Shown here: positions 29,750-62,304 of the stretch, one piece after another
How the letters are laid out: each line of letters starts with the position of its first letter
Position numbering within the stretch: position 1 is the first letter of the stretch
Source of the DNA: a virus
Direction: 5' to 3' (one strand)
DNA: 64,000 nt
Virus record (IMG/VR): IMGVR_UViG_3300022902_000007
Made by a program: the position numbers and the translations under genes
The notes under the pieces: model-generated
What the model was told of the DNA's origin: nothing
Databases searched by the model: none
What the model saw: only the letters and a program-made list of their open reading frames with translations

Positions 29750-29962
29750 TTATAAAAGAGAATAGTCGATGTAAGTTTTTACCTCTTCAACGAGGTGACT
29801 CGTAGGCAGGTGCTCATGCACTGAGCTCTCTGACCACTCGATATATGGAGTGGCTCTTATTGCTCTGATGTGCGTCGATATCAGTCTCCAGTCCTGTTTG
29901 TTGAAGCCTCTGAGCCACCATCTGGCTCGTAGCTTGAGTCGTTCTTTAAGTGATAGTTTCAT
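29750..29962 (-). CDS. Hypothetical protein
   Basis: ATGA coupling to dnaE. Confidence 0.4.
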   Translation of the reverse strand: MKLSLKERLKLRARWWLRGFNKQDWRLISTHIRAIRATPYIEWSESSVHEHLPTSHLVEEVKTYIDYSLL

Positions 29963-31227: not shown

Positions 31228-31992
31228 CAGTTTTGTTATCCCATGGGCTTTTTATCCCATGGTTCTATGAGTTTGATTCCTCATAGCTCAGCATATGTTT
31301 TCACCCTCGACTGTAACGTTAGGGTGCCCCGGCCTCGTGGAAGGATTATATTCTCCGAAGAGTTTCATCTTCTATGCGTTGCCCCTGGCTTGATTGTTAT
31401 ATCAAACCTTCGGTTCAAGTTCCCATCTCAGGGTCCTTGCTTAATTCCGGGATACTCTCTCCACAGTTTCCTGTAGAGACGGGCATAAACAATCAGTTTT
31501 TCTTTTTAAATACAGTGTTGCGTCCTTATATATATGAGACAAAGCAATATCAAGTGCAGCTTTGGATGTGATCCAAAGTCGTGGTGTATACTTGTCATAT
31601 GTATAGATAGACATATTTTTGTAGGGACTCCTATCAATTCAAACCACTGATAGAGATCATCAAGAATTGGAGCGCTACTAGTAATTTGCAAAGCCGTCTT
31701 TCTTATGTGACCATCACCATCAATGAATCCTCTGATAAAATGATGGACATATTCTTGACTTATAGAGGGCATAGAAAAACTCCATGTCTTCTTTGGGACT
31801 ATTCCATAGCATCCGTTCGACGCCTGTTTGGGACTTTCCTATTATTTTTGCAATTTGTACTGTATTTAAATTTTCATCAACATGCAATTCTATGATTCTG
31901 TTGACTATTTCTTCTGAATATCGTCTACCTATACCTTCTCCGAATGGATGAATAGTGTGATGATATCAGAATATGATTGTATTTTAAAGTTC
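31228..31992 (-). ncRNA. Group I intron (765 nt) in dnaE with a homing-endonuclease remnant in the P1 loop
   Basis: Exon GGGU pairs with GCCC (31481-31484); P3 CCCGG/CCGGG; P7 GCATA/TATGC; terminal G at 31228; splicing restores 'RKAVG|KKKKKDL'. Confidence 0.88.
31428..31930 (-). pseudogene. Decayed LAGLIDADG homing endonuclease
   Basis: 'HFIRGFIDGDG'; upstream HTH fragment 'NTVQIAKIIGKSQTGVERML' in another frame; frameshifted tail '...IYKDATLYLKRK...GP*'. Confidence 0.8.
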
Positions 31993-33183
31993 ACCCACTG
32001 CTTTTCGCGCCAGATCAGTCTGTACCAAGTCCCAGCCACAAGTTTCGTTGAACAACTGCATCAGGTTTTCCTGATACACCATTACTCCACGAGTCTTCTG
32101 CCACAATTCGAGATCTCTCACGTCTTGAGGGATCAGGGCATCCGGTTCATTGTCACAATATTGTTCGTCCATGTGTGCTTTGCGTGGACCTGGACGAATC
32201 AGTCCAGTAACGTCTGAGATCTCTTGGATACTGCTTGGCTGAATACGCTTGATTAGTTCCCAGGTTACTCCCGAGGTCTCAAGCTGGAAGATACCAGACA
32301 ACAAGCCGAGGTTGATGATTCGATATGCCTTTTCATCGTAGTCTTCGATCTTGTATATGTCTATTTCTTTTCCGTGTCTTTCTTTAATTAGTCTGAGACA
32401 TTCCGAGATGACATCCAGGTTGTCAATGACCAGAAGATCCACTTTCAGAACACCATTTTCTTCTACATCTCCCATATCGAGCTGGGTCACCCAGGTCTTT
32501 TTCTTTTTTGTCTTCCCCTTCTTGTCGAGCTCTTTGACCTCTTTCAGAGCGACGGGACACCATTCTGATATCGGATAGTCTGTGAAGACCACGCCTGCTG
32601 CGTGGATGGATGATGTACTGGACATGTCCTCGAACACCTGGGCAAGCTCGTACAGCTCTTTGTATTTTTGTTCGGTGGCTATTGCTGGAGCTGCTTCGAT
32701 GACTTGTTCGAGAGTTGGCTCCTTCCCGGCATCAGGCCGAGGAATCATTTTGAGCAGTTCAGCGGTCCATGTGTCAGATTTTTCTCTGATAGAGCAGTAT
32801 CTTCTTACAATCGAGCGCGGTTTGAAGGTTCCATAGGTACCAATTTGGGCGGTGTTTTCCCTTCCCCGATGCTCAATGAGCCAGTCGATCAGTTCCATTC
32901 GTCTAAGTGGAGAGATGTCCAGGTCCACGTCTGGAGGACTTCCGTCTATCATGTCTCCCCTCGCTTTCTCAAAGTCAAACTGATCACTTAGCTCGGTGAT
33001 ATACAGAATGATGCTGTTGTGAGGATTATCGAGCTTGCCTTCATACTCTCTTTTGTTCTTTAATAGTCTCAGTACGAGATTGAGGTCTTCGCCAGAAATC
33101 TTCTCTTCTTCGAACTCCAGAAAGTCTGGGTCAGTTTGCTCGATTCTCTCGCCTTTGTAGAACCTCTTCAATTCTTCAATCAT
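31993..33183 (-). CDS. dnaE: DNA polymerase III alpha, C-terminal gene, exon 1 (catalytic palm)
   Basis: 'PPDVDLD', 'QIGTYG', 'SIHAAGVV', 'LKVDLL', 'GIFQLE', 'LIRPGP', 'TRGVMVYQE'. Confidence 0.9.
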
Positions 33184-33204
33184 TAATTTCCTCTCAGGTT
33201 AAAC

Positions 33205-33606
33205 ATGGCTGCTACTTATTATAAGGTCTTATCTTCGATTCCTTCTCTCGAAAGATCAGCAGAAATTACTGCTATTGTTCAGGGTGATCAGATAAATATC
33301 AAGGATGACATCCTGGGCCGTCCGGCCCGAGGGTTCAAGATCATACCAGATGACAGTACGGATTCTATTACTTATAGACTCAACAATCGTATCGAGATAG
33401 TCAAGAAAGGTCCCTTTCACGGGACTGTAAAGTCTGGTGCTTTTGAAAGCACTGAGGTATGGCAAACTGGCTATGGTGTTCCACAATATACTGAAACAGG
33501 GGCAGCTGTCTATGAGTCTGTAGAGGGCTTGCAGATCTCTTCCATTGAGTTTCCAACTATTGTTTTTGGTGCCGGCGGTGTAGCAATCACAATGATCGTG
33601 TGGTAG
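33205..33606 (+). CDS. Hypothetical (possible virion) protein
   Basis: First gene of a plus-strand island; beta-rich. Confidence 0.55.
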   Translation: MAATYYKVLSSIPSLERSAEITAIVQGDQINIKDDILGRPARGFKIIPDDSTDSITYRLNNRIEIVKKGPFHGTVKSGAFESTEVWQTGYGVPQYTETGAAVYESVEGLQISSIEFPTIVFGAGGVAITMIVW

Positions 33607-33613
33607 GTGAAAA

Positions 33614-34357
33614 ATGGCAGGACCTACTAAAGTTCAAGTCACCGCTGATAGCGTTGGGTTGGCTGGAGCACTTGTACCCCAGGGGGCTATCGCTGCAGCA
33701 GATGATTTCCCTACTTCTGACGAAGTCCAGACAGGCTGGTGGTATACTTGCTCGGCCAATGTGACCGACAATGATGTTACCAAAACCAATACAGGTCTCT
33801 CATTCAGGATGTATGACGAGCTCGCCTGGAACGGTAGTACTTGGGTCAACTACGGCAAGACGAGATATGCGTCAGACATAACAGCTAACACTTCTCACAG
33901 TGGTGGAGACGGCTCGGACCATGCTGATGTGGGGACAAATACTGCTCACCTCTCAGACACTGGCAATCCTCACTCTGTTTCTGAGGCAGATGTCTCTTCA
34001 GAGCGCATGATCAGAGACGCTATCGTAGTGGCTGGCAATGACACTGTGCGAACTCGTCTCTCCTTTGACAAGGCTGTCCGGATATCGAGTATAGCTGTCA
34101 TGTGCGTCACCGTAGCAACAGTCGGTACATACACTCTTGAAGCGAAACGTACATCTGATGTTCAGAATTTGCTTAGTGCAGCCAGCTATGACCTTACAGG
34201 GCTTGTCGCTGGGACATGGACTGAGATAACTCTCAATGGCACCCCGGCTAATCTTGAACTTGCAGCAAATGCTGACATGTATGTTGATTTTATTTCAAAC
34301 AACGCGGGGCTCGATGCTGCCGGTGTCTATCTGCGTGTAACTGCTACGGTTGTCTAA
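33614..34357 (+). CDS. Putative virion structural or fiber-like protein
   Basis: Ala/Thr/Gly-rich; 'GWWY...DELAWNGSTW'. Confidence 0.55.
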   Translation: MAGPTKVQVTADSVGLAGALVPQGAIAAADDFPTSDEVQTGWWYTCSANVTDNDVTKTNTGLSFRMYDELAWNGSTWVNYGKTRYASDITANTSHSGGDGSDHADVGTNTAHLSDTGNPHSVSEADVSSERMIRDAIVVAGNDTVRTRLSFDKAVRISSIAVMCVTVATVGTYTLEAKRTSDVQNLLSAASYDLTGLVAGTWTEITLNGTPANLELAANADMYVDFISNNAGLDAAGVYLRVTATVV

Positions 34358-35385
34358 TGGCTATTATAGAACTTGGTGATGCAGGCGGGTCTGACGTCAT
34401 TTGGACCATGAGTGCCAACCTCGAACAAGACGATTACACTACAGTCAGTACTACACTACAGGCTGATGGAGCTGATACCGCTCCAGATTCTTGGGCACTG
34501 GCCAAGCCGACAGGCTCTGCTTCAGTTGTTGTTGGCGCTGGTCACACTGTTACTTTTGTTCCAGACTCGCCTGGAGTATATACTCTTGCTGCCAATGTCG
34601 GCACTGAGGTAGTCGTTCGAGTGGTCAAGATTGGAATCGAGATTGAAGGTGGTGCATGGGCGGAAGTCCTCGTTGACATGGACCTCCCCACCATAGGTGG
34701 GCTTGGGACTGTCGTCTTGGACGATAGCGGAGACGCTGACTATACTGTAGGCGGAATCACTCTACACTGTTCAACTCAAACAGCGGCAGATACTTTTGAA
34801 TGCAATCCCAATGGTATCGAAGTCACCAAGACCGGCAGCCAGGGGAAGGTCCGTATCACTTTGGGGATCACTGATGATTTTGATGTTGACCCAGAGGACA
34901 TAGTCTATTTCATAGTAGAAGCTGATCCGGATACTTCGAGTGGTGCGAATGATCTAATACGCGTAGTTACTCCCACCGGTGAAGAAGTTGCCTCTGGGGC
35001 TAACTCTTTGGGATGGATTGAGGCTCACCATGCTGATGGGGCTGGCGATTGGGACATCTATGATCAGCCTGGTAGCATCGGAGTTGGTGCCAAAGCTGCC
35101 GACCTGGTTGGCGCCACTCCAGCCAGGCTTCGATTTGTATTCAAAGTAGATAGATGTACTGGCACTGCACGTCTTGATACTACTGATAGTGCGGTAGCTC
35201 GGCCATCTGATGTGACACTGAGAACTGCTTTTGAAGTTACTCAGGGTACTAACCACGTATATGGCGCTCCCCCGACGCTTTATGACTTCCAGTCAAATAG
35301 TTATCATGGTCTCATCTATATCAATGTGGAAGACACATTGTATATCACTCGCATTGCGCTTTGGCGGATAAGACCCACGGCATAG
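34357..35385 (+). CDS. Putative virion protein (Ig/PKD-like plus beta-sandwich)
   Basis: 'SWALAKPTGS..VTFVPDSPGVYTL' PKD-like; acidic, Thr/Gly-rich. Confidence 0.55.
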   Translation: MAIIELGDAGGSDVIWTMSANLEQDDYTTVSTTLQADGADTAPDSWALAKPTGSASVVVGAGHTVTFVPDSPGVYTLAANVGTEVVVRVVKIGIEIEGGAWAEVLVDMDLPTIGGLGTVVLDDSGDADYTVGGITLHCSTQTAADTFECNPNGIEVTKTGSQGKVRITLGITDDFDVDPEDIVYFIVEADPDTSSGANDLIRVVTPTGEEVASGANSLGWIEAHHADGAGDWDIYDQPGSIGVGAKAADLVGATPARLRFVFKVDRCTGTARLDTTDSAVARPSDVTLRTAFEVTQGTNHVYGAPPTLYDFQSNSYHGLIYINVEDTLYITRIALWRIRPTA

Positions 35386-35607
35386 CTACAAGCCACGGAC
35401 CATTTTCTCAAGAGGCCCCATGTGGGCCTCACTGTTTATCAGCTTCTTGTATAGCTTGATGAATTCATCTGTATAGCTTTTGATATCGTCTGTTACATGA
35501 GCAGTCATCATGAACCCGAGTGCCGCTTTGTAATCAGTCTTGGAGCACTTGATACCAGTCTTTCTGCGGAAGTAGTCATGGCTATATCTAAATTGTTCAG
35601 GTCTCAT
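35386..35607 (-). CDS. Hypothetical protein
   Basis: ATGA-coupled to the dnaE N-terminal gene. Confidence 0.5.
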   Translation of the reverse strand: MRPEQFRYSHDYFRRKTGIKCSKTDYKAALGFMMTAHVTDDIKSYTDEFIKLYKKLINSEAHMGPLEKMVRGL

Positions 35608-36920
35608 TTTAGTTTCTCCTTCATCTGTCGTGTAAAGATTAGTGGGATGGCACTACGGCCGAAGTTCAGGAAGCGTTCGAAGTATAGTCCGTATTTGATT
35701 GGATCAATTTGAGTGATGCCTGTGGCCCAACAGACAAGAGAACCTGAGCTCGAACCCCGGCCCGGACCCACGATGATCGATCTTTTATTTGCTTCTTCAA
35801 TGATCTGGGCTACTATGAGAATGTAGTCAGATACGTTCATCTTCTTCATGATATGAAGCTCGTAGTCGAGTCTGCGTCTGTACTCCACCGGCGGTATTTC
35901 TCCATTGAAGCGGTCCATTAGGCCATGTTTCGCTTGAATCTCAAGCCAGTTCCAAGCAGTCTCATCCTTCGGGAGATCCGTGTAGGACGGCAGTCTGTTC
36001 ATCCTGTCTTCATAGTAACTGTCTGAGTCAACCATGCCTGCAATCAGAACTGTATTTTCGATGGCCTCGTATGGGATGGCAGTATTCTGACAATGCTTCC
36101 ACATCCAATCATGGGAGGCAAGGTGGCAATCGAGTCCTCTAAAACTGAATCTCTTCTCAGAGCTTACTGGAGAATTTGTTTGAATGCACAGCGCCATATC
36201 GTGGAGTTTTTGATGGCTTCGTTTTGCATAGTGAACGTCGTTGGTAATGATCAGCGGAAGCCCTGTGTCTCCTGCGATTTCTATCAGTGCTGCATTCACA
36301 ATGAGTTGCTCAGTTGAGTAGAGCTCACCGTTAATTTCAGTGATGTCTTCTCTGCCAGCCCATGTGTAGTTTCCAATTTCCAATTCAATCATGAATCTAT
36401 TTGAGAATATTTCTGCATATTCTTCAATCAGTTTCTTTGCTCTTGGGATTTCGCCCGCGAGGATGAGCTGGGAGGGCTTGGAGCCCAGGCAGGCGGACGA
36501 GGCACAGAGCCCATCAGCATGGTCAGCAAGCATTCCATTATCTAAACGTGGCTTGTGGTACATACCCTCTGTCCAAGCACGAGAACTGAGTTTGTTCAGA
36601 TTCTTTAGGCCAGTGTTGTCGAGGGCTATTAGCAAGAGGTGATAGTGAAGCTTTCCAAGTTCATCTTTTTCTTTGACTGTTGCTCCATTCGGAGCCCAGT
36701 ATGCTTCGAGGCCGAGGATCGGTTTAACGCCCTCCTCGTTACAGGCCTTGAAGAACTTGTAGTTGCCTGCTACCGAGCCGTGGTCTGTTATTGCGATAGC
36801 AGTTTGGCCTCGGCTTTTGGCGATCTTTGGTAAGTCTTTTATCTTGTTGATGCCATCCAAGAGACTCATCTCGCTATGAGCATGCAGGTGGACGAAATTA
36901 CTGTTCATCTTTCCATCCAT
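35604..36920 (-). CDS. dnaE: DNA polymerase III alpha, N-terminal gene (PHP domain plus start of palm)
   Basis: 'HLHAHSEMSLLDG', 'ITDHG', 'KPILGLEAY', 'TNDVHY', 'GPGRGSSSGSLV', 'FERFLN', then stop. Confidence 0.9.
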   Translation of the reverse strand: MDGKMNSNFVHLHAHSEMSLLDGINKIKDLPKIAKSRGQTAIAITDHGSVAGNYKFFKACNEEGVKPILGLEAYWAPNGATVKEKDELGKLHYHLLLIALDNTGLKNLNKLSSRAWTEGMYHKPRLDNGMLADHADGLCASSACLGSKPSQLILAGEIPRAKKLIEEYAEIFSNRFMIELEIGNYTWAGREDITEINGELYSTEQLIVNAALIEIAGDTGLPLIITNDVHYAKRSHQKLHDMALCIQTNSPVSSEKRFSFRGLDCHLASHDWMWKHCQNTAIPYEAIENTVLIAGMVDSDSYYEDRMNRLPSYTDLPKDETAWNWLEIQAKHGLMDRFNGEIPPVEYRRRLDYELHIMKKMNVSDYILIVAQIIEEANKRSIIVGPGRGSSSGSLVCWATGITQIDPIKYGLYFERFLNFGRSAIPLIFTRQMKEKLK

Positions 36921-37089: not shown

Positions 37090-37393
37090 AATAATCTCCT
37101 TCGATCAGCCATTCGGAGCTCGACAAGATAGGTGAGACCAGGCACTTCTTACAAGAATACCCTCGGTAGGATACTCCCCAGGGGCTGCTGAAGACGCCTG
37201 CTGGAATATTCAGACAGTCAGAGCAGTAGACATACCCACAGTCTCGACATGGCCCTTGATCGGTCACTAGTTCGTAAGTGTCATCTTCATGTCTGGTCTG
37301 TATTAGCTTTCCGCATTCAGCGCAGAACAGCTCTTCTTTAATCTTCTTCTTCATCAGTGGTTTCCGTTTCTTCCAGTATTGTGAGATCGCCAA
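37064..37393 (-). CDS. Zn-finger protein
   Basis: Four CxxC motifs. Confidence 0.5.
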   Translation of the reverse strand: MAISQYWKKRKPLMKKKIKEELFCAECGKLIQTRHEDDTYELVTDQGPCRDCGYVYCSDCLNIPAGVFSSPWGVSYRGYSCKKCLVSPILSSSEWLIEGDYYEADRDTT

Positions 37394-38396
37394 TGCACTT
37401 ACTCTTCAGTTTTTCGTATTCTTCTGGGGAAGCTTCGAGATGTGCTTTCAGTCCGAGTCTTCCGCCAATACAGATTGTGAGGTCTGTCTCTGGGTCCTTG
37501 ACAGCGCTGCCAGCAAAACGGATGATGCCCTTCTGCTTTGCGCACTCAATCAGGTCGAGATATGGGTCAACGCCCCTGCCACAAACGAATTGCATTGCGG
37601 CAGTTTTTCCTTGCATCGCAAACTTGTTTTTAACCACTCTCACTTCCATTGCCAGGGTGTCGCCTGTCTTCGAGGCAGGCTTCGATTTGACTCTGAATCT
37701 GAGGGAAGCATAGTAAGGAAGCCCATTTCCGCCGGAAGTTGTCTCTGGGTTGCCGTACATCACACCGATTTTGTATCTGATTTGGTTGATAAACACAAAG
37801 AATACTCTGGAGTCTGTACAGATCTTGGACAGCTCACGAGTCGCTCTGGACATCTTCCTCGGAAGTGTAGCCACTGAGATTTCGTCGATATCTTTCTTGA
37901 CGTCTTCTTCAGTTTGGGCAGCATCGACTGAATCAAACACTACACAGCCGATATCACCTGACTTACACAGATTGATTGATAACTGGAGCGCTTGCTCAGC
38001 AGTATTCGGACGCACATAGAGAACCTTCTCAGTATCTATCCCGAACCCAGCCATAAAGTCAGTGTCGGTAGTCCTCTCCAGATCGAAGAAAGCCGCGATC
38101 CGTTCTTCTCGCTCTTCAATTAAAGCTCGTGCCGTCTCGTGCCTCTGCCAAGCAGCTATGAACTGTAAAGACAAAGAGGTCTTTCCGCCGCTGGTGGGCC
38201 CAAATATTTCAATCATTCTATCGAGGGGCAGTCCTCCTGAGCCAATGGCAGCATCCAGGGTTACGGACCCAGAAGGAAACGTTTCTGAGCTTTCAACAGC
38301 ATTGCCCATGCCATATACGAGGTCTTCATTCTTCTTCTTGAAGGCGGCCAGCACAGCGTCTGCACCTTTGAGCCCTGTTACTTTCTTGATTCCCAT
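37338..38396 (-). CDS. recA: RecA recombinase
   Basis: 'GSVTLDAAIGSGGLP', 'EIFGPTSGGKT', 'FDSV', 'FINQIRYKIGVMYGNPETTSGGNGLPYYASLR', 'VVKNK'. Confidence 0.95.
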   Translation of the reverse strand: MGIKKVTGLKGADAVLAAFKKKNEDLVYGMGNAVESSETFPSGSVTLDAAIGSGGLPLDRMIEIFGPTSGGKTSLSLQFIAAWQRHETARALIEEREERIAAFFDLERTTDTDFMAGFGIDTEKVLYVRPNTAEQALQLSINLCKSGDIGCVVFDSVDAAQTEEDVKKDIDEISVATLPRKMSRATRELSKICTDSRVFFVFINQIRYKIGVMYGNPETTSGGNGLPYYASLRFRVKSKPASKTGDTLAMEVRVVKNKFAMQGKTAAMQFVCGRGVDPYLDLIECAKQKGIIRFAGSAVKDPETDLTICIGGRLGLKAHLEASPEEYEKLKSKCIGDLTILEETETTDEEED

Positions 38397-39182: not shown

Positions 39183-39373
39183 TAGTCTTCATCCAGTGTG
39201 GCGTATGCCTTTTGTCCGTCATACATCCCTTCTGATGGGAAGTATTCGCCTGCCTCGGTCGTATACAGAGCCTTTTGGACGGCCTCTTCTTCTGATTCGG
39301 CCATGATTGTATATCTATAGAATGGATAGTCGCATGGGATGATTACTTCGTACTCATTCATTGTTGTCTCCAA
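39182..39373 (-). CDS. Hypothetical protein
   Basis: 'AESEEEA' phage small-protein motif. Confidence 0.45.
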   Translation of the reverse strand: METTMNEYEVIIPCDYPFYRYTIMAESEEEAVQKALYTTEAGEYFPSEGMYDGQKAYATLDED

Positions 39374-39947
39374 TTCTTACTGTCATGAATTCTACTCTCC
39401 CAGCATTGACCGCATCTCTGATGCGGCGTTGTACCTTGGAGAGCTGTGACTTGTTTGTCTTCACATCGATTAGAACTATTTTGTTTATCTCGTTTGCTTC
39501 ACCGTCGTTAACAGCTCCACAGCCGTCAAAGCAGATTATGTCTACTGGCTTACCAATGAAACGCATGTCCCCTGGTTCGAGTCCTTCAATCATGAATGGA
39601 GCGAGGTTCTCTGCTGCTTGACCTCTCAAGACTGCGCGTGATTGGTCGAGAGTCTTCTTCCTTATCTTTTTTGTTTCTTCTTGCTTCCACAGCTCCATCA
39701 GTCCACGAGCTTCTTCTCGGGCCACGGTTTCAACTTCTGCTTTGTCGACTAATAGCTCTTGGTATTTGGAAGACAATAGATCCATGTCACCAGAGAGCTG
39801 TGTACTCTTGCCTGTCAATTCGTGAATCTGCTGCTTGGCGTCCGATACGAACAATTCCAGGCGGGTGATGTCTTCTTGTTTGCTTTTGTGTATTGCATAT
39901 GCAATGATTAAAGAGATGACTGCGAGGCCAATAAATAGGAATTCCAT
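39354..39947 (-). CDS. Membrane-anchored endonuclease related to archaeal Holliday junction resolvase
   Basis: N-terminal TM, coiled coil, 'SRAVLRGQAAENLAP', 'FIGKPVDIICFDG', 'DVKT...LSKVQRRIRDAV'. Confidence 0.8.
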   Translation of the reverse strand: MEFLFIGLAVISLIIAYAIHKSKQEDITRLELFVSDAKQQIHELTGKSTQLSGDMDLLSSKYQELLVDKAEVETVAREEARGLMELWKQEETKKIRKKTLDQSRAVLRGQAAENLAPFMIEGLEPGDMRFIGKPVDIICFDGCGAVNDGEANEINKIVLIDVKTNKSQLSKVQRRIRDAVNAGRVEFMTVRIGDNNE

Positions 39948-40375: not shown

Positions 40376-40703
40376 AGCAGTGCCAAGAAGCTCTCTTCAT
40401 TATGTATGAAGACTCAGTTTGCTCGGGCACCCAAGGCCCGAGCCAGGCAATGAGCTCGTCTCTATAGAATAGAAAGCTTCCTTTGTCACTAAAGGCAGAA
40501 TGAGTTTCTACACGGCAGTCTCTTGCAAACTCTTCAAACGGAGTGTTCCAGTTCTCTTGGAGAGCCCTCATCCATCGCTGTGTTAGGATTTGCTCGTAGA
40601 ACTCATTTTCTGTCTTGGCCATCTTTGAAGTCATGTCAATGATCTTGTCATTGAAGAAGTTCTCGCAGGACGGACTAATTGTCAGAGTGGATGTGTTATC
40701 CAT
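40299..40703 (-). CDS. Hypothetical protein
   Basis: TAATG coupling. Confidence 0.4.
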   Translation of the reverse strand: MDNTSTLTISPSCENFFNDKIIDMTSKMAKTENEFYEQILTQRWMRALQENWNTPFEEFARDCRVETHSAFSDKGSFLFYRDELIAWLGPWVPEQTESSYIMKRASWHCFSKEEDASSVPPEVSDYLNAHSHQA

Positions 40704-41083
40704 TAGCTGTAGTCCATTCCAGCATAGATCTTTGGAACCTTCTTCGTGCCGAATACCTTTTCTGACATTTGGATCAGACTTGAAATTGTATTTGCATTGA
40801 TTGGGCCATAACTATGCGTGTCATATTCGTAACCGGTGCCACCTATACCAATATAATTGCCGTCACAGTCGCTGTCAGAGTAGAAAGTAAGATCCTGGCT
40901 ACTAAACAGCTCATCCCATTTGTCGTACCAACTCCATTCATACTCTTCATGAGATGCTGGTTTTTGTTCAAAGATCTCACAGAGCCCTACATAGTTGTCG
41001 TAGGTGGTCCCTGCTATTTTATAGCCGAGAATCACGAATGAAGAAGAGCTACTGTTGCTTACGAAACCATTGCGTTGTTTCAT
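40703..41083 (-). CDS. FVSNSSSSSF-motif protein 7
   Basis: N-terminus MKQRNGFVSNSSSSSF. Confidence 0.75.
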   Translation of the reverse strand: MKQRNGFVSNSSSSSFVILGYKIAGTTYDNYVGLCEIFEQKPASHEEYEWSWYDKWDELFSSQDLTFYSDSDCDGNYIGIGGTGYEYDTHSYGPINANTISSLIQMSEKVFGTKKVPKIYAGMDYS

Positions 41084-41084
41084 T

Positions 41085-41423
41085 TTAACCTCTGTGAATT
41101 CTATATGCTTTGAACTTGTGTTCGATTAGATCATGTAGCTGATATGGGATGCTGTTGTCATAAGCTGATTCAATGACTATTTGGCCCGGAGTGATTGATT
41201 GCCAGAGCGGACCCCAGCTTGCCTCCATCTCCTCTACATATTCTTCTGTAGCCTCGAATGGCAGCAGGAACATGTCCAGAAACTGCTGGTTCTTCATGGA
41301 CCATTCAGTCCAGAAGTCTGTAAGAGATATTAAAAGCTCTGCTACTTCTTTTTTTGTATGCCCCGAGTCGCAAATGAATGAACTGGAGGAGCTATTTGAT
41401 ACAAACGATTTACGGACTTTCAT
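41085..41423 (-). CDS. FVSNSSSSSF-motif protein 8
   Basis: Start re-called at MKVRKSFVSNSSSSSF (GGAG upstream). Confidence 0.75.
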   Translation of the reverse strand: MKVRKSFVSNSSSSSFICDSGHTKKEVAELLISLTDFWTEWSMKNQQFLDMFLLPFEATEEYVEEMEASWGPLWQSITPGQIVIESAYDNSIPYQLHDLIEHKFKAYRIHRG

Positions 41424-41424
41424 G

Positions 41425-41934
41425 TCACTCTCCATTCACTATTTCGACTATGCCCTGGTCTTTGAGTCTCATGAGCTCGGTGTGCAAGATTTCATCGCTA
41501 TACTCTATTCTAATGTAGGCTGATTCTTTGTCTTTCAGAGCTTCTTTGAATCTGTCGATTTCGGCCTTGTCGGAAGCTGCCCATCTTACATAATCTGCAA
41601 GACGTTCTGCATTCGTAAGCCTGGAGGGCCGATTGCTCCATGGGTTACTTGCCCTCTCATCAGGCTGAAGTCTTTTCGTCTCTTCTATACGCCTGAGGCT
41701 TGTTTCGTAGTCCTTTTCCAGATCTTTTAGATAATCTTCGCCCGTGCCGTGCCGTCCAGAGCTATCTGAGTGACTGTACTGTGTATTCTCCAGCATCTGC
41801 AGGAGGTTGTGGCCTCCTCCGACTGGGTGGCCACAGTGAGGACACTTTCGCTCCTTGTCAAAGGTCCCAGGCTCGTAAGCAATCACGTAAGAGCTGCTTG
41901 AACTATTGCTAACGAATGAATGTCTAATCTTCAT
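41425..41934 (-). CDS. FVSNSSSSSF-motif protein 9 (with CPHC)
   Basis: N-terminus MKIRHSFVSNSSSSSY. Confidence 0.75.
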   Translation of the reverse strand: MKIRHSFVSNSSSSSYVIAYEPGTFDKERKCPHCGHPVGGGHNLLQMLENTQYSHSDSSGRHGTGEDYLKDLEKDYETSLRRIEETKRLQPDERASNPWSNRPSRLTNAERLADYVRWAASDKAEIDRFKEALKDKESAYIRIEYSDEILHTELMRLKDQGIVEIVNGE

Positions 41935-46072: not shown

Positions 46073-46354
46073 TTATTGATCCAGTGTCTTGTAATATTCC
46101 AGAAGGATCGCATCATAGATGCGCTTGCGGTTTTCGATTCCCTCTTCTCCAAAGAACCGAACATTGTCGTACCATGTGGTATCGCCCTCTGCGCTGGTGC
46201 CTTGGCTTTGTGGGGGGCCTACGAACAAGCCGTTCTGGCCTGCTACGATTCGGAATCCGCCCACACTGAACCAGTCTTCAATTACGACTGATGCAATACC
46301 GACGAGTTTAGCTGGATTCTTGACTGGCCAAACCTTGATTCTAAAGTTAAACAT
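46073..46354 (-). CDS. spoVG: SpoVG-family nucleic-acid-binding protein
   Basis: 'LVGIASVVIED.F.V.GFRIVAGQNGLFVGPP...YDNV...RKRIYDAILLEY'. Confidence 0.85.
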   Translation of the reverse strand: MFNFRIKVWPVKNPAKLVGIASVVIEDWFSVGGFRIVAGQNGLFVGPPQSQGTSAEGDTTWYDNVRFFGEEGIENRKRIYDAILLEYYKTLDQ

Positions 46355-46882
46355 TTATTTTATCTCCATTAGTTTGTACTTGATGTTGTTGATTTCTACG
46401 ACTTTGCCGTTACAACCTTGGGTTTCGTCCGATTGGGTACGAAGTTTGTGCTCTGCTTCGGTGAGGAGTTCATCGTTGAGGTAATAGTACTTTGTACCAT
46501 CGGAATAGATGATTGCAGGGCCATCTTCTCGGTGAAGTTTATCGTCTTGGCACCACATTTGGTAGCCATCGGAATGGATGATTGCAGGGCCATCTTCTCG
46601 GTGAAGTTTATCGTCTTGGCACCATTCTTGGTAGCCATCGGAATAGATGATTGCAGGTCCATCTGTGCGGTGGACTTTACCGTTTAGCCACCAAGCTTGG
46701 TAGCCATTGGAATAGATGACTGCAGGTCCATCTGTACGGTGGAAATTACCGTTTTGGTACCACTCTTGGTAGTCATCAGAATAGACGACTGCAGGACCAT
46801 CTTCTCGGTGAAGTTTACCGTTGAAGTACCACTTAACGGTACCATTTTCGTAGGTTCTGACTTCTTGGGTTTCATAGTTCAT
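46355..46882 (-). CDS. Repeat protein with 22-aa LHREDGPA units
   Basis: Five tandem 'LHRxDGPAIIYSDGYQEW' repeats. Confidence 0.8.
   Translation of the reverse strand: MNYETQEVRTYENGTVKWYFNGKLHREDGPAVVYSDDYQEWYQNGNFHRTDGPAVIYSNGYQAWWLNGKVHRTDGPAIIYSDGYQEWCQDDKLHREDGPAIIHSDGYQMWCQDDKLHREDGPAIIYSDGTKYYYLNDELLTEAEHKLRTQSDETQGCNGKVVEINNIKYKLMEIK
46490..46830. repeat. 66-bp coding tandem repeats
   Basis: Near-identical units such as gatgattgcagggccatcttctcggtgaagtttatcgtcttggcacca, spaced 66 bp apart. Confidence 0.8.
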
Positions 46883-50191: not shown

Positions 50192-50950
50192 TCATGTTTC
50201 TATTAAGGGGGCATAGTCCTCCTCTTTGAGAGAGAAGGTCCAGGCGACTGCTTCTTTTACTGTTTTCATGCCTGGAGGAACTTGAATCCAGTGATGACTA
50301 TGGTCTGTTGAGTCTTCTACACAGATAGCGTAGACATGTTGATTGGCTCCTTCCAAATGTGGAAATCTGCAAAGAGTTCCATATTTGGAATCCTGAATGA
50401 CTTCCCCAAGGATAGGCTCCGTCCTTTTGATAGGAGTCAAAAGTGCTTCTGTTGCCGTGTTGTGTAGTCGCAGACACCAAGAAATAGCAGATAACAAAGT
50501 CTTGTCGCCATGCAAAATGGTTGAGCCTGAATTACGATTCTTTATTTGGATCGCTGCCTCGTATCCCAAAAGAGAACTTCTTGTAACTATCTTAGAAGAA
50601 AAGAATTCATAGGTGTAGTCACCTATATGAGGAAGCAGAATACTTTTCTCTGTTATAACCTCATGGAAGCCAAGATTTTTCAGCAAGAACGCATTTATTT
50701 GTTGTAGTTTTGATAAATGTGAGTATGGATGAGAGCGGCCCCGCTGCTCGGGGGCTTGAGAGCAAAGGAATAGGATTCTTTTTGTAGAATCTGTGAAGAT
50801 AGCTGGTGGAGAATGGTATCTGTATTTTGGAAGCACTTCCGTAGTACAAGCAATCCATTCCCATAGGCTTTCTGGGAGATCTTTGTGGATGTCGAATAGA
50901 AGATTCAATAATGGAGTCCCGAGAATTCCTGTTTTAGTCGGCCACAGCAC
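50192..50950 (-). CDS. DUF6745-like phage protein
   Basis: C-terminal 'VEDST...WIQVPPGMKTVKEAVAWTF.L..EDYAPLIET'. Confidence 0.6.
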   Translation of the reverse strand: MLWPTKTGILGTPLLNLLFDIHKDLPESLWEWIACTTEVLPKYRYHSPPAIFTDSTKRILFLCSQAPEQRGRSHPYSHLSKLQQINAFLLKNLGFHEVITEKSILLPHIGDYTYEFFSSKIVTRSSLLGYEAAIQIKNRNSGSTILHGDKTLLSAISWCLRLHNTATEALLTPIKRTEPILGEVIQDSKYGTLCRFPHLEGANQHVYAICVEDSTDHSHHWIQVPPGMKTVKEAVAWTFSLKEEDYAPLIET

Positions 50951-51241: not shown

Positions 51242-51799
51242 TTACCTCGTCAAGTGCTTGGCTTCAACGTGTAGGCTGATGCCGATCTGTTCTACGATGC
51301 TCTTCACTTCGAGCAGGGTTTCCACGCGCTTTCTCCAGAACCCTTTGATGATCTTGGCAGCGATGTGCGTAGAGACTGTCTCTGCCATGTAGGAGTCTGC
51401 TATCTGTTCAATCAGGGATGCAGCAGGTCTCTTGGCTCCTCGACCTGTGTTTCCTCTTGTTTCGTAATCCTTTACGATGGCTGCAATGATATCGTTCTTG
51501 GTTAGCTTCCCACCGCCGCTGACTGTCTCCTCCATCGCAACCGTAGCAGAGTAGTACTTATTAGCTCTCTGTAGCTTGTTGGCAATCTCTGACAGCTTGC
51601 GTCGGAAGCCATATTCGTCGAGATCATCTGGGATCTCTACTTCCATTTCGTTTGCCCACTCAAACAGTGTCTGGCCATAGAACACCAGTTTCTCTTGAAT
51701 GAAATTCGAAGAGAGTCCCGAATACAATTCAGCCCCTTCTTCTACTCGCCTCAGAAGCTCTTCTGTTGAGACTTCTGGAATCTGTTGTTCTTCTGGCAT
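51242..51799 (-). CDS. Hypothetical helical protein
   Basis: GAGG RBS; 185 aa. Confidence 0.55.
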   Translation of the reverse strand: MPEEQQIPEVSTEELLRRVEEGAELYSGLSSNFIQEKLVFYGQTLFEWANEMEVEIPDDLDEYGFRRKLSEIANKLQRANKYYSATVAMEETVSGGGKLTKNDIIAAIVKDYETRGNTGRGAKRPAASLIEQIADSYMAETVSTHIAAKIIKGFWRKRVETLLEVKSIVEQIGISLHVEAKHLTR

Positions 51800-51869: not shown

Positions 51870-52244
51870 CTACCAGGGGATCTTGTTACGTGGACGTTGA
51901 GTCTGAGCATTCGCGGCATCAGCCTGAGTGGTCTGTGTAGATCCACCGCCCTTTGCACGATAAGCAGCCAGTACTGCGTCTTCAATCTCTCTCTTGAGCT
52001 TCTCAGCCCCTTCCTTGTTGGGAGAGTCGTCGAAAGTCAGGAACTTGACCTGGTCGTACCAAGCTTTGTTTCCATCACGATCTTTGCCTTCGCGAGAAGG
52101 CGAGGCCATGAATAGACCCTTGGCCCCATCAAAAATCTTGAAGCCATCAAGAACGACTACGTCCTCGATTGTAATTGAAGCAAAAGCCACGAGCTTGCTG
52201 GTTGGGTTCTGGAGCTTGAATACGTTTACACTAAAGTTGAACAT
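51870..52244 (-). CDS. spoVG: SpoVG-family protein with flexible C-terminal tail
   Basis: 'LVAFASITIED..VLDGFKIFDGAKGLFMASPSR...WYDQV...IEDAVLAAY'. Confidence 0.85.
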   Translation of the reverse strand: MFNFSVNVFKLQNPTSKLVAFASITIEDVVVLDGFKIFDGAKGLFMASPSREGKDRDGNKAWYDQVKFLTFDDSPNKEGAEKLKREIEDAVLAAYRAKGGGSTQTTQADAANAQTQRPRNKIPW

Positions 52245-52432
52245 TCGGTTTCCTTTTGTTCTATTTGTAGATGTTCTTTACCATCAATCATTTTTGTTTT
52301 AATTCGGCTTCCGCCTTCGAGTATCACTATCAGCATCGCTTGAGCCAATAGTTCTATTGCCATGTCGGCTACTTGCTTAGCTATCAATCTCGCTGCTGGA
52401 CTCATCGCCAGCGTCAGGAGAAACTTCTTCAT
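52226..52432 (-). CDS. Hypothetical protein
   Basis: ORF in operon context. Confidence 0.4.
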   Translation of the reverse strand: MKKFLLTLAMSPAARLIAKQVADMAIELLAQAMLIVILEGGSRIKTKMIDGKEHLQIEQKETECSTLV

Positions 52433-52682
52433 CTATACTGACCTCGTTCTTCTCTCTAAAGACTCTGTAATAGTATCCGTACTGCATTGACAGGGCTATC
52501 AGACTTTCCAACGAGATTCTACCCAGATGCTGGCCTCTTTGTAATTTATTGGCTATTTCCATTGCCAGTATGGGTATGTCTTTCTTTTGTTTTTTGAAAA
52601 TTCTACCTGATAGATGTTCTATCAATTGTTCAGAGGAGAGTCTCAATACCGACTCGCCGTTTTTGCTAACGACAAAGTCCAT
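52377..52682 (-). CDS. Hypothetical protein
   Basis: ORF in operon context. Confidence 0.5.
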   Translation of the reverse strand: MDFVVSKNGESVLRLSSEQLIEHLSGRIFKKQKKDIPILAMEIANKLQRGQHLGRISLESLIALSMQYGYYYRVFREKNEVSIDEEVSPDAGDESSSEIDS

Positions 52683-52684
52683 TG

Positions 52685-53152
52685 TTACAGCCAGCCAATG
52701 AAGGTTGGAGCTGCTGCGATCAGAAGTCTGATCAGTACCTCGTACTCCCCTTCTGACATGGGAACGGTTACGGATACGTCAGTATGTGTGTTTCTCAGAG
52801 TGAGCATGAAGCCACTCTTCTGGCCAGGCTTGACGGATAGTTTCTTCTTGTCAGGACGACCTGGAGTATCATGAAATAGTTCTACTCCATTGTAAGGGTC
52901 GGCCATCCATAGATTGAGGTCCGTCATGCCAATATTTATGTTGACTTTGTTTTTCCAGTCATAGCTTCGCTTCCCGAGGGAAGCAGCCATCTCCAGAAGA
53001 ACGCCGCCAGGCATGTCTATACGCTCGGCTTTGGTACCGTCATTGCGAGTGAATTCTCTATACTTCGGCAGGATTAGATTGAACTGGGCTGCGCCCATGC
53101 CTTTGTAAATAGCGAATTGTCCTGGAAGTCGTTCTACATATTCTGCATTCAT
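52685..53152 (-). CDS. Whirly-like ssDNA-binding protein
   Basis: Colinear plant-Whirly motifs: 'AIYKGMGAA', 'GVLLEMA...RSYDW..K', 'LFHD', 'K.LSVKP', 'VP....EY.VL', terminal 'P.FIGW'. Confidence 0.75.
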   Translation of the reverse strand: MNAEYVERLPGQFAIYKGMGAAQFNLILPKYREFTRNDGTKAERIDMPGGVLLEMAASLGKRSYDWKNKVNINIGMTDLNLWMADPYNGVELFHDTPGRPDKKKLSVKPGQKSGFMLTLRNTHTDVSVTVPMSEGEYEVLIRLLIAAAPTFIGWL

Positions 53153-53409
53153 TCAGTAATTACCTCTTGGTCGAGCCAGGAAAGCAAGACGAGCCCTTGG
53201 CGGGCAAGAGAATTGTGCAGTGTGTCGCCATTTTTCTTTATGTCTTGCATTACTATTTCAACTACGTTTCGTGTTGTTACTTCTCTTGAATCCATTCCCG
53301 CAAAACCAAGTTGCAGGAATACATTTCCGAGAACCTCTATCGCTTCTTCTATAGAAGCTCCTTGTAGTACTTGCTGGACTTGGTCCAGCCTATCTTTGCC
53401 AGTCTTCAT
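53149..53409 (-). CDS. Hypothetical protein
   Basis: ATGA coupling on both sides. Confidence 0.5.
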   Translation of the reverse strand: MKTGKDRLDQVQQVLQGASIEEAIEVLGNVFLQLGFAGMDSREVTTRNVVEIVMQDIKKNGDTLHNSLARQGLVLLSWLDQEVITE

Positions 53410-53789
53410 GTTGCTGTTCTATTTTCTTTTGTGAGTTTTCTAAGTATTTCTTTCAAGGCTTGCTGTCCATGAGCCTTGTAGTGCCATGGTACCATGATGG
53501 GCTCGTACAAAGCAATCAAACTGTCTGATAATTCATAGTTGTCTCTGTCTCGAAATCTGCTTTGTACTGTCTTTATCGGCTCATGCAGTTGGACCACGAT
53601 AGATCCTCGGAGATCGATTCCGCAAGCTGATTCAATAAAGACCGGAGAAGGATGAGCCTTTGCATCCTCTTGAAATCTGATTTCTCTTCGAGCTCCTTTG
53701 TATTCGGCCAGATCAAGTTTTGGGACATCAAAAGCTTTGATGACGGTGCTCTTGCCTGAGCCTGGCAGTCCCGTTATTTGTATCTTCAT
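53406..53789 (-). CDS. Small P-loop kinase-like protein
   Basis: 'ITGLPGSGKST'. Confidence 0.65.
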   Translation of the reverse strand: MKIQITGLPGSGKSTVIKAFDVPKLDLAEYKGARREIRFQEDAKAHPSPVFIESACGIDLRGSIVVQLHEPIKTVQSRFRDRDNYELSDSLIALYEPIMVPWHYKAHGQQALKEILRKLTKENRTAT

Positions 53790-61695: not shown

Positions 61696-61981
61696 TCAGA
61701 TAACTCCTGCGAGAGGTATAGCCTTTAAACATATCCGTGGCACCCTGGGTTCCAAGAAATACAATTGCTATTGGCTTGAAGATATTCTCAAGTAGCCATT
61801 TGATGTCTTCAGTGAGACGGATATCCATCCATGAGATTACATCGATCGTGAGCCATTCGCTTCCTGAAATAAGAAGAATGACAAAGGAAGCTGCCAGAAA
61901 AACCAGCAGCTTCCTACTTGTATATTTCTCAATCGCGATATCCCAAAGCCCCTTCTTTTCAAAACGAGGCTGGGTATTCAC
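61604..61981 (-). CDS. Holin-like membrane protein
   Basis: 'KYTSRKLLV' plus two TM segments and 'QGATD'. Confidence 0.5.
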   Translation of the reverse strand: MNTQPRFEKKGLWDIAIEKYTSRKLLVFLAASFVILLISGSEWLTIDVISWMDIRLTEDIKWLLENIFKPIAIVFLGTQGATDMFKGYTSRRSYLNAVPKTKLSEATETMPKDSVVPSGEELLSP

Positions 61982-62304
61982 TACAGAAACTCTACTTCAC
62001 TTGCCACGATCTCGGTGGTACGATGAGTAACTTCGTTAGAGTCCTTCCAGGCACGAGGATTCATGCGACCACTTACGGCTACCTTCGACCCTTTCTTGAG
62101 ATACTTCGCGCAGGTCTCTGCGAGTGGACCGTAGGCCACTACGGGAATCCAGTCAGTGGCTTTGACGGTATTGCCATCGGCATCACGGCGACGACGATCA
62201 CAAGCTACACTGAAAGAAGTTACGGCAGTGCCAGAATTGGTCTGACGAAGTTCAGGATCGCGGCCAAGATTACCGAGGCCGCTCCAAGTATTGGTTACGC
62301 TCAT
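61981..62304 (-). CDS. ssb: Single-stranded DNA-binding protein (no acidic tail)
   Basis: 'GNLGRDPELR', 'FSVA', 'YLKKGSKVAVSGR', 'TEIVA'. Confidence 0.92.
   Translation of the reverse strand: MSVTNTWSGLGNLGRDPELRQTNSGTAVTSFSVACDRRRRDADGNTVKATDWIPVVAYGPLAETCAKYLKKGSKVAVSGRMNPRAWKDSNEVTHRTTEIVASEVEFL

What the first reader, a model, noticed from the sequence alone, without database searches (positions are those of the whole stretch)
52685..53152. Plant Whirly-like ssDNA-binding protein in a phage
Seen: the sequence carries, in order, AIYKGMGAA, GGVLLEMA, RSYDWKNK, ELFHD, KKLSVKP, VPMSEGEYEVL and terminal PTFIGW. Established: plant organellar Whirly proteins have the colinear motifs SIYKGKAAL, GFVLLQFA, RQYDWSRK, EFFHD, KVLKVEP, IPVTKAEFAVL and PYLLGW (recalled from memory). 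Inference: this is a viral Whirly homolog acting in replication or recombination. It bears on the origin of the plant family, since other organellar replication proteins are phage-derived.
Basis: partly seen in the sequence, partly recalled or inferred. Interest (0 to 1): 0.75.

Follow-up and report, generated by a model that had tools for sequence, protein, structure and literature searches.

The report
Plant-type Whirly protein in a phage
An uncultured marine tailed phage encodes a true member of the Whirly single-stranded-DNA-binding family, which plant papers call plant-specific; it sits among the phage's replication and recombination genes beside RecA and an ordinary SSB, so both its job and the origin of the plant family can be tested in phages.

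Summary
Window 52685-53152 on the minus strand is a 155-aa ORF that carries all seven quoted motifs.

It is a real Whirly:
- Pfam PF08536 scores 66 bits against a cut-off of 23.
- phmmer finds AtWHY1/2/3 and StWHY1/2 at E 4e-12 to 1e-8.
- The AlphaFold2 model (pLDDT 95) superposes on those crystal structures at TM 0.79-0.83. PUR-alpha and MRP1/2 stay below 0.5.

The window is a phage replication and recombination arm, and it also encodes RecA and an OB-fold SSB. The Whirly is therefore not the only ssDNA binder. I read it as an accessory ssDNA-binding tetramer in RecA-dependent recombination or repair; that role is inferred, not shown.

The gene lies in a block conserved in every related contig fetched whose locus covers it. 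A non-syntenic 149-kb phage contig also pairs Whirly with a SpoVG-like gene, RecA and SSB.

235 sequence clusters match. Eukaryotic sequences form one clade among more diverse stand-alone forms, which fits a prokaryotic or phage origin but does not prove it.

No paper found describes a sequence-level phage Whirly.

The parts
52685..53152 (-). Whirly-family gene (155 aa, 17.4 kDa, pI 8.8). It has no transit peptide and no acidic tail.
   Evidence: ORF. PF08536 at 66.4 bits. PDB WHY1/2/3 at E 4e-12 to 1e-8. AF2 pLDDT 95.2. Foldseek TM 0.79-0.83 to plant Whirly structures. Size and pI.
53149..53409 (-). 86-aa gene of unknown function. Its stop overlaps the Whirly start (ATGA), and it is conserved immediately upstream of Whirly in relatives.
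   Evidence: Overlap. tblastn hits next to Whirly in 14 fetched loci (L001, L003-L009, L011-L014, L021, L022; L006 and L022 are copies of L003 and L008). Only weak Pfam and PHROG hits.
52377..52682 (-). 101-aa gene of unknown function that starts 2 nt after the Whirly stop. It is conserved immediately downstream in relatives.
   Evidence: No usable Pfam, PHROG, PADLOC or Atlas hit.
51870..52244 (-). SpoVG-like gene, co-conserved with Whirly. A SpoVG-like gene also lies about 1.3 kb from the Whirly gene of a non-syntenic phage (L035).
   Evidence: PF04026 E 4e-10. Synteny. L035:7784-8197 is SpoVG, beside Whirly at L035:9457-9966.
51242..51799 (-). 185-aa all-helical gene, the best-conserved neighbour in the block. 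A possible UvsY-like recombination mediator; this is a lead only.
   Evidence: 32-68% identity across 9 loci. The Atlas neighbour cluster carries PF11056 UvsY in 13% of members. T4 UvsY is the top VIA-align match at Z 10.8, 122 aligned residues of a 126-residue chain. There is no sequence-profile hit to UvsY, and helical models reach such Z values by chance.
53406..53789 (-). 127-aa P-loop protein between the ubiquitin-like cassette and the Whirly block.
   Evidence: Weak Walker-A hits only. Conserved position in relatives. In L035 a thymidylate kinase sits directly upstream of Whirly.
37338..38396 (-). RecA recombinase, the proposed functional partner (inferred).
   Evidence: PF00154 E 1.4e-59. 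RecA is present in 6 of 6 Whirly-bearing viral records searched.
61981..62304 (-). Canonical OB-fold SSB of 107 aa, without the usual acidic C-terminal tail.
   Evidence: PF00436 E 5.7e-33 within set A3. phrog_44 E 1.9e-40. Sequence end read.
39354..39947 (-). Archaeal-type Holliday-junction-resolvase-like endonuclease, part of the same recombination toolkit.
   Evidence: PF10107 E 2.6e-28.

Best explanation
The ORF encodes a true Whirly-family protein of an uncultured marine tailed phage. By homology it most likely assembles into a whirligig-shaped homotetramer that binds single-stranded DNA, without sequence specificity, on and between its beta-sheets. The same phage encodes a canonical OB-fold SSB and a RecA, so the Whirly protein is most likely an accessory ssDNA binder rather than the replicative SSB. 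I propose that it coats or protects ssDNA at forks, gaps and resected ends during recombination-dependent replication and repair, and that it helps RecA-mediated strand exchange and/or suppresses microhomology-driven misjoining, as plant organellar Whirlies do. The position of the second lysine of the plant KGKAAL motif is Met in this protein. In plants that lysine drives 24-mer assembly and cooperative coating of long ssDNA, so binding here may be as simple tetramers. What is shown: family membership, the fold, the phage context, co-occurrence with RecA and SSB, and the conserved gene block. What is inferred: the tetramer, ssDNA binding and the recombination role.
For: - Family and fold: PF08536 at 66.4 bits against a cut-off of 23, covering profile positions 1-134 of 136. 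AtWHY1/3/2 and StWHY1/2 match at E 4e-12 to 1e-8 over the full domain. The AF2 model has pLDDT 95.2 and a strand-rich half, helix, four strands, helix layout. Foldseek gives TM 0.79-0.83 to all plant Whirly structures, and under 0.5 to the next folds, PUR-alpha and MRP1/2.
- Core residues: the columns shared by stand-alone and eukaryotic members are kept here, namely Y16, K17, A21, P29, G49, E54, A56, Y64-D65-W66, K69, H94, K103, P131, E136 and G153.
- Context: primase, three-piece DNA polymerase, ATP-dependent ligase and RNR; RecA, an Hjc-like resolvase and UDG; SSB. The gene overlaps or abuts its neighbours in one long minus-strand array.
- Co-occurrence: RecA in 5 of 5 and SSB in 3 of 3 complete Whirly-bearing IMG/VR records. 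The same holds in a non-syntenic 149-kb phage contig.
- Published plant data: Whirlies potentiate AtRecA strand exchange in vitro where the canonical mtSSBs do not (bioRxiv 10.64898/2026.10.24.761589). StWHY2 K67 is needed for 24-mers and cooperative binding, but not for the tetramer or for short-ssDNA binding (PMC3245945).
- Neighbour: the 185-aa gene gives a weak UvsY-like signal.
Against: - No experiment and no multimer model supports the tetramer or DNA binding for this protein.
- The gene is 15 kb from recA and is not adjacent to any recognised recombination gene. Its immediate neighbours are of unknown function or SpoVG-like.
- Most of the Whirly-bearing phages sampled share synteny, so their RecA and SSB co-occurrence counts as about two independent observations, not six. 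I have no base rate of RecA among large phages.
- Whirly-fold proteins can be RNA binders (ChmC, MRP1/2).
- The UvsY lead rests on scores that helical proteins can reach by chance and has no sequence support.
Confidence: 0.55

Rival explanations
1. It is the phage's main replicative single-stranded-DNA-binding protein, standing in for an OB-fold SSB.
For: It has a Whirly ssDNA-binding fold inside a replication gene arm. The phage's OB-fold SSB is only 107 aa and lacks the acidic partner-recruiting tail, so it could be a specialised or weakened SSB. Earlier notes of this scan report other phages in which a tailed Whirly seems to replace SSB (unchecked here).
Against: A canonical SSB is present in this window, in all 3 complete related records and twice in the non-syntenic contig. 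This Whirly ends one residue after the conserved GW and has no linker or acidic tip.
Confidence: 0.1
2. It is an RNA-binding or transcription-linked factor, for example one that holds melted promoter DNA or nascent or messenger RNA for the phage's own RNA polymerases, working together with the SpoVG-like neighbour.
For: Plant Whirly was first found as a ssDNA-binding transcription activator and also binds RNA. The Whirly-fold proteins ChmC and MRP1/2 are RNA binders. A SpoVG-like gene is linked to Whirly in two non-syntenic phage lineages. Earlier notes say this phage encodes two RNA polymerases of its own (unchecked here).
Against: By sequence and structure the protein is a Whirly proper, not ChmC-, PUR- or MRP-like (TM under 0.5). 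The surrounding genes are DNA metabolism genes, not transcription genes. No RNA polymerase gene lies near it in the window.
Confidence: 0.2
3. It belongs functionally to the adjacent ubiquitin-like conjugation cassette, as a substrate, adaptor or sensor, or it acts as an ssDNA decoy against host defences.
For: In every related locus long enough to show it, the E2-like, JAB, ThiF(E1) and Ubl genes lie just upstream of the P-loop, 86-aa and Whirly genes. A reverse transcriptase lies about 5 kb from Whirly in L035.
Against: In L035 Whirly lies in nucleotide-metabolism surroundings, and the window's Ubl-cassette proteins find no match in the 19.5 kb fetched. There is no PADLOC hit. Adjacency within one phage clade can simply be inherited gene order.
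Confidence: 0.08

Closest known systems
Plant organellar Whirly proteins (AtWHY1/2/3, StWHY1 = PBF-2 p24, StWHY2; Pfam PF08536; PDB 4koo, 4kop, 4koq, 1l3a, 3n1h)
   Same: Detectable sequence homology over the whole domain (24-30% identity in structure alignments). The same fold at TM about 0.8. The same signature positions: YK at the start of the KGKAAL site, YDWxxK, FHD, K103, E136 and the terminal GW. It co-exists with RecA and a bacterial-type SSB in one genetic system.
   Different: It has no transit peptide and no C-terminal extension. The second lysine of KGKAAL is Met, whereas it is Lys in 36 of 43 rows of the eukaryote clade and 32 of 108 stand-alone rows. The loop after FHD is shorter. 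It is encoded by a phage, inside a block with a SpoVG-like gene and small unknown genes.
Uncultured-phage Whirly proteins already in databases (e.g. CAB4160126.1 / UniRef100_A0A6J5NR37, auto-named 'Whirly transcription factor [uncultured Caudovirales phage]')
   Same: The same stand-alone 140-170 aa architecture, the same half of the tree and the same gene block. P0156 and P0010 are about 40% identical to this protein, and L027/L028, which are 62% identical to P0010, show the synteny.
   Different: It is a different subclade. The window protein groups with P0002-P0005 at 59-66% identity (100/100 support). I found no paper that discusses any of these proteins.
ChmC of chimalliviruses, and the kinetoplastid MRP1/MRP2 and PUR-alpha proteins (Whirly-like fold only)
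   Same: The beta-beta-beta-beta-alpha repeat fold, tetramers and single-stranded nucleic-acid binding. ChmC shows that phages use this fold (PMC11077065).
   Different: ChmC has no detectable sequence similarity to known proteins and prefers RNA (PMC11077065). PUR-alpha and MRP1/2 match this model only at TM under 0.5. This protein is a sequence-level Whirly.
T4 gp32 / UvsX / UvsY recombination system
   Same: A large phage with its own recombinase and SSB, plus small accessory proteins that manage ssDNA. The 185-aa neighbour gives its best structural match to UvsY.
   Different: Here the recombinase is a RecA-type PF00154 protein and the SSB is a bacterial-type PF00436 protein. The extra ssDNA binder has a Whirly fold, which T4 lacks. 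The UvsY resemblance is unproven.

Membership tests
Whirly family (Pfam PF08536) | Scores above the curated gathering threshold of the family HMM over the whole domain | tested here: met
   66.4 bits against a cut-off of 23, E 3e-18; residues 15-141 match profile positions 1-134 of 136.
Whirly family (Pfam PF08536) | Direct sequence similarity to experimentally characterised members | tested here: met
   phmmer against the PDB: AtWHY1 4e-12, AtWHY3 1.9e-11, AtWHY2 3.8e-11, StWHY1 5.7e-10, StWHY2 about 1e-8, all over residues 8-154.
Whirly family (Pfam PF08536) | Whirly fold: two four-stranded antiparallel sheets, each followed by a helix | tested here: met
   AF2 pLDDT 95.2, with strands at 12-60 and 70-74, helix 76-84, four strands at 90-132 and helix 134-151. 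Foldseek TM 0.79-0.83 and rmsd 2.3-3.1 to 4koo, 4kop, 4koq, 1l3a and 3n1h.
Whirly family (Pfam PF08536) | Conserved signature residues shared by eukaryotic and stand-alone members | tested here: met
   Y16, K17, A21, P29, G49, E54, A56, Y64, D65, W66, K69, H94, K103, P131, E136 and G153 are the majority residue in both groups and are present here.
Whirly family (Pfam PF08536) | Homotetramer with whirligig shape | not testable with these tools
   Only single chains can be modelled here. Both helices that build the plant tetramer core are predicted.
Whirly family (Pfam PF08536) | Preferential binding of single-stranded DNA | not testable with these tools
   This needs EMSA or fluorescence polarisation. 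The pI of 8.8 is compatible with it.
Higher-plant WHY1/2/3 subgroup | KGKAAL motif with the second lysine (StWHY2 K67, AtWHY1 K91), needed for 24-mers and cooperative ssDNA binding | tested here: not met
   The motif here is K17-G18-M19-G20-A21-A22, with Met at the second-lysine column. Its role in plants is from PMC3245945. Algal members also lack the motif (PMC9070903), so this excludes the subgroup, not the family.
Higher-plant WHY1/2/3 subgroup | N-terminal organelle-targeting peptide | tested here: not met
   The domain starts at about residue 10, and there is no extension.
Bacterial-type OB-fold SSB (PF00436) | OB fold matching the SSB HMM | tested here: not met
   Pfam reports only Whirly, plus a sub-threshold CDT1_C hit, for this protein. 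The window's PF00436 protein is a different gene, 61981-62304.
ChmC / PUR-alpha / MRP1-2 (Whirly-like fold families) | Closest structural neighbours are PUR repeats or MRP proteins | tested here: not met
   TM 0.37-0.48 and E about 5e-3 to 4e-2, far behind the plant Whirlies.
UvsY recombination mediator (PF11056), for the 185-aa neighbour 51242-51799 only | Sequence or fold match to T4 UvsY | tested here: inconclusive
   No Pfam or PDB sequence-profile hit. Foldseek gives E 0.41 and TM 0.66 by target. In VIA-align UvsY ranks first at Z 10.8, but helical models reach about 13 by chance. The Atlas result is a lead only.

The most novel reading that the evidence does not exclude
The Whirly family of green plants and algae descends from a gene of the prokaryotic virus world, either a phage or a phage-borne gene shared with a few bacteria. 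An ancestor of Viridiplantae would have taken it up, as happened with Twinkle and the phage-type organellar RNA polymerase. The RecA, SSB and Whirly trio seen in these large phages would then be the ancestral working unit that plant organelles still use.
Probability: 0.45. Interest if true: 0.8.

Novelty: new member of a known kind. Interest (0 to 1): 0.6.

Why it matters
Reviews and research papers up to October 2026 call Whirly proteins plant-specific or plant-unique. They treat them as a eukaryotic addition to organelle genome maintenance.

A large and diverse set of stand-alone Whirly genes in big uncultured phages changes that picture in three ways:
- It offers a minimal system for finding out what Whirly does to ssDNA and to RecA: a 17-kDa protein with no targeting peptide, no paralogues, a defined RecA and a defined SSB.
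- It provides natural variation at the cooperativity lysine.
- It makes the origin of the plant family a testable phylogenetic question.

For phage biology it adds a second, non-OB class of ssDNA binder to the recombination toolkit of large phages.

Tried and rejected
- Deposited phages: tblastn of four family members (P0001, P0156, P0055, P0060) against 50,697 deposited phage genomes found no match. PHROGs has no family for the protein.
A hand-made DNA motif for YKxxGAAQF succeeded instead.
I therefore could not read the contigs of P0003 (154 kb), or of P0055, P0134 and P0153, the stand-alone forms nearest the plant clade.
- No whole genome is held for the window.
- Cellular bacterial family: not found in 14 control genomes. 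Among 400 other sampled Pseudomonadota genomes there was one marginal half-domain hit. Among 301 Verrucomicrobiota genomes, 4 had weak hits and 2 were just over the cut-off, about 27% identical to stand-alone forms P0123 and P0043. Rare bacterial members therefore exist, and I dropped my interim reading that all short forms are phage.
- Three motif hits in bacterial or archaeal MAGs (L014, L021, L022) carry the phage gene block. L022 is the same 111,807-bp contig as an IMG/VR record, so I read them as binned phage contigs.
- Defence-system membership: no PADLOC hit.
- UvsY identity of the 185-aa neighbour: kept as a lead only.
- Cappadocia 2010 (PMC2910959) is not held, so I could not map the individual DNA-contact residues.

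Full report
**1. The observation**

Window 52685-53152 read on the minus strand is a single ORF of 155 codons, ATG to TAA. The plus strand of the same interval is broken by stops. The ATG overlaps the stop codon of the upstream gene (ATGA), and the downstream gene begins 2 nt after the TAA. The ORF is therefore one link in a tightly packed minus-strand array that runs from about 2.3 kb to 59 kb of the window.

**2. It is a Whirly protein in the strict sense**

- Pfam PF08536 matches at 66.4 bits (cut-off 23, E 3e-18) over profile positions 1-134 of 136.
- phmmer against all PDB sequences returns, at significant E-values, only plant Whirly proteins: AtWHY1, AtWHY3, AtWHY2, potato PBF-2 p24 and StWHY2, at E 4e-12 to 1e-8 over the full length. 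The one further row (SLL1785) is at E 0.35.
- AlphaFold2 with a 45-sequence alignment gives pLDDT 95.2 and pTM 0.86. The layout is a strand-rich first half, a helix, four strands and a long C-terminal helix.
- Foldseek places every plant Whirly crystal structure first, at TM 0.79-0.83 and rmsd 2.3-3.1. The next folds, PUR-alpha and MRP1/2, reach only TM 0.37-0.48.
- The protein therefore differs from ChmC, the known Whirly-fold protein of jumbo phages. ChmC has no detectable sequence similarity to known proteins and prefers RNA (PMC11077065).

**3. The genome is a phage, and the gene lies in its DNA-metabolism arm**

The window encodes:
- a primase, a DNA polymerase in three pieces, an ATP-dependent ligase, the RNR large subunit and a metallophosphoesterase;
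- RecA, an Hjc-type resolvase-like nuclease and a uracil-DNA glycosylase;
- ThyX and ClpP;
- a dNMP kinase and an OB-fold SSB.

Earlier notes of this scan describe the same genome as an uncultured marine contractile-tailed phage; I did not re-test that. PHROGs has no family for the Whirly protein. Four family members used as tblastn queries find nothing in 50,697 deposited phage genomes.

**4. Relatives**

- The word-indexed search found only five close relatives.
- The exhaustive phmmer search over 1.84 billion cluster representatives found 235 clusters at E <= 1e-3.
- Of the 181 proteins held at that point that cover at least 85% of the domain, 129 are stand-alone forms of roughly 130-230 aa (mostly 140-190) with under 35 residues before the domain. 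The other 52 carry N-terminal extensions of 35 aa or more.
- Named members with extensions are Malania WHY2, an Oryza protein and a Bryopsis protein.
- One stand-alone cluster contains CAB4160126.1, auto-named "Whirly transcription factor [uncultured Caudovirales phage]", seen on contigs of up to 164 kb.
- A DNA motif for YKxxGAAQF pulled 13 IMG/VR contigs of 8-192 kb. Twelve of them (44-192 kb) encode true relatives; the 8-kb contig does not.
- The same kind of scan over 185,579 species genomes gave three true hits, all on MAG contigs that carry the phage gene block. One is the very contig that IMG/VR lists as viral.
- PF08536 is absent from 14 control genomes. Among 400 other sampled Pseudomonadota genomes there was one marginal half-domain hit.
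- Prompted by earlier notes, I sampled 301 Verrucomicrobiota genomes. Four had weak hits and two were just above the cut-off, about 27% identical to some stand-alone forms.
- The family is therefore mainly phage-borne in what I could place, with rare and divergent bacterial members. Not every "short form" can be assumed to be viral.

**5. Conserved gene block**

In every related locus long enough to show it, the order is: E2-like, JAB, ThiF(E1), Ubl, P-loop protein, 86-aa gene, Whirly, 101-aa gene, SpoVG-like gene, 185-aa gene. This holds even where Whirly identity falls to 27-44%. These phages are therefore kin, and their shared features are not independent observations.

A second lineage gives some independence. 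An IMG/VR contig of 149 kb (68% complete) carries a Whirly from the other half of the tree. It sits beside a thymidylate kinase, a SpoVG-like gene, RNR, an RNA ligase and a reverse transcriptase, and shares no other window genes in 19.5 kb. A third subfamily lies in a high-GC phage-like context with a helicase.

**6. What it probably does**

The window has both a canonical SSB (61981-62304; 107 aa; no acidic tail) and RecA. RecA is present in 5 of 5 and SSB in 3 of 3 complete Whirly-bearing IMG/VR records, and both are present in the non-syntenic contig. This Whirly has no linker or acidic tip. It is therefore unlikely to be the replicative SSB.

The RecA, bacterial-type SSB and Whirly combination is the one found in plant organelles. 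There, Whirlies protect against microhomology-mediated rearrangements. In a 2026 preprint they potentiate strand exchange by the AtRecAs where the canonical mtSSBs do not. I therefore favour an accessory ssDNA-binding role in RecA-dependent recombination, repair or recombination-primed replication, at a confidence of about 0.55.

The residues shared between stand-alone and eukaryotic members are intact here. The second lysine of KGKAAL is Met. In StWHY2 that lysine is dispensable for tetramers and for short-ssDNA binding, but it is needed for 24-mers and for cooperative coating (PMC3245945). The prediction is non-cooperative binding by tetramers.

The 185-aa neighbour gives its best structural match to T4 UvsY: Z 10.8, 122 residues aligned of a 126-residue chain, and four of the top five rows are UvsY. 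The Atlas also gives a UvsY hint. There is no sequence-profile support, and helical models reach such scores by chance. I keep it as a lead that would strengthen the recombination reading if confirmed.

The rivals are:
- an RNA-binding or transcription-linked role together with SpoVG (0.2);
- the main replicative SSB (0.1);
- a functional tie to the neighbouring ubiquitin-like cassette, or an anti-defence role (0.08). There is no PADLOC hit.

**7. Origin of the plant family**

- Tree: a careful IQ-TREE of 152 domain sequences puts all rows of the eukaryote clade on one side of a branch. Support is UFBoot 100, SH-aLRT 74, and 100% of 200 bootstrap trees; the bootstrap had not fully settled.
- How the clade was defined: it was delimited on a first tree. 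It contains all three named eukaryotes and 32 of the 33 rows with long N-terminal extensions.
- Position of the window protein: a strongly supported split (100/89) separates 76 stand-alone forms, including the window protein, from 33 stand-alone forms plus the 43 eukaryotic rows.
- Diversity: stand-alone forms are more diverse, with a mean patristic distance of 2.59 against 1.71.
- Rooting: a minimum-variance root leaves six stand-alone forms with the eukaryotes. It fits better than a root on the eukaryote stem, with variance 0.098 against 0.189.
- Shared plant features: the stand-alone forms nearest the plant clade share plant-specific features, including an exact KGKAAL in P0134 and the longer loop after FFHDP.
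- Reading: all this fits an origin of plant Whirly in the prokaryotic virus world. I put that reading at about 0.45.

**8. Novelty**

Full-text searches found no paper on a sequence-level phage or bacterial Whirly. The plant literature calls the family plant-specific. However, an auto-annotated phage member is already in NCBI and UniRef. This scan has also noted phage Whirly genes on other DNA many times, though no look-alike of this particular sequence was indexed. This gene is a new member of a known family in an under-reported setting, not a new kind of protein.

Noticed in passing
window 29959-36920 (-), with + strand ORFs at 33205-35385 and 31144-31951: The DNA polymerase (phrog_405) is split into three separate minus-strand ORFs: 35604-36920, 31984-33183 and 29959-31143. 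They match consecutive parts of the profile. Three plus-strand ORFs lie between pieces 1 and 2, and small ORFs between pieces 2 and 3. This could mean mobile-element insertions or a naturally split polymerase.
   Followed up: no
window 61981-62304 (-): The phage's OB-fold SSB is only 107 aa and ends right after the OB domain, with no flexible linker and no acidic tip. The open frames around the SSB matches in related records are 123-152 aa.
   Followed up: partly
window 51870-52244 (-) and 46073-46354 (-): The window holds two SpoVG-like paralogues. One is co-conserved with Whirly, and a SpoVG-like gene also lies beside Whirly in the non-syntenic phage contig L035.
   Followed up: partly
window 51242-51799 (-): This is a well-conserved 185-aa helical protein with an invariant KRPA motif. 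Its best structural match is T4 UvsY at Z 10.8, without sequence support.
   Followed up: partly
window 50192-50950 (-) and 46355-46882 (-): Two genes carry DUF6745 matches.
   Followed up: no
window 40703-41083 (-) and 41085-41435 (-): Two adjacent small proteins start with nearly the same leader, containing FVSNSSSSSF.
   Followed up: no
L035:15268-16209 (+) (IMG/VR contig of 149,407 bp): A reverse transcriptase (RVT_1) lies about 5 kb downstream of the Whirly gene of a second phage lineage.
   Followed up: no
L026 (G035:C2:11128-11304): A sampled Pseudomonadota genome has a 289-aa open frame that matches only the first half of the Whirly profile (positions 1-65, 23.8 bits). It could be a half-domain or a fused form.
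   Followed up: partly
L036 and L037 (Verrucomicrobiota genomes G642 and G522): These are bacterial open frames of 208-215 aa with weak but real Whirly matches: 24-25 bits to Pfam and about 27% identity to stand-alone forms P0123 and P0043. Rare cellular members of the family therefore exist.
   Followed up: partly
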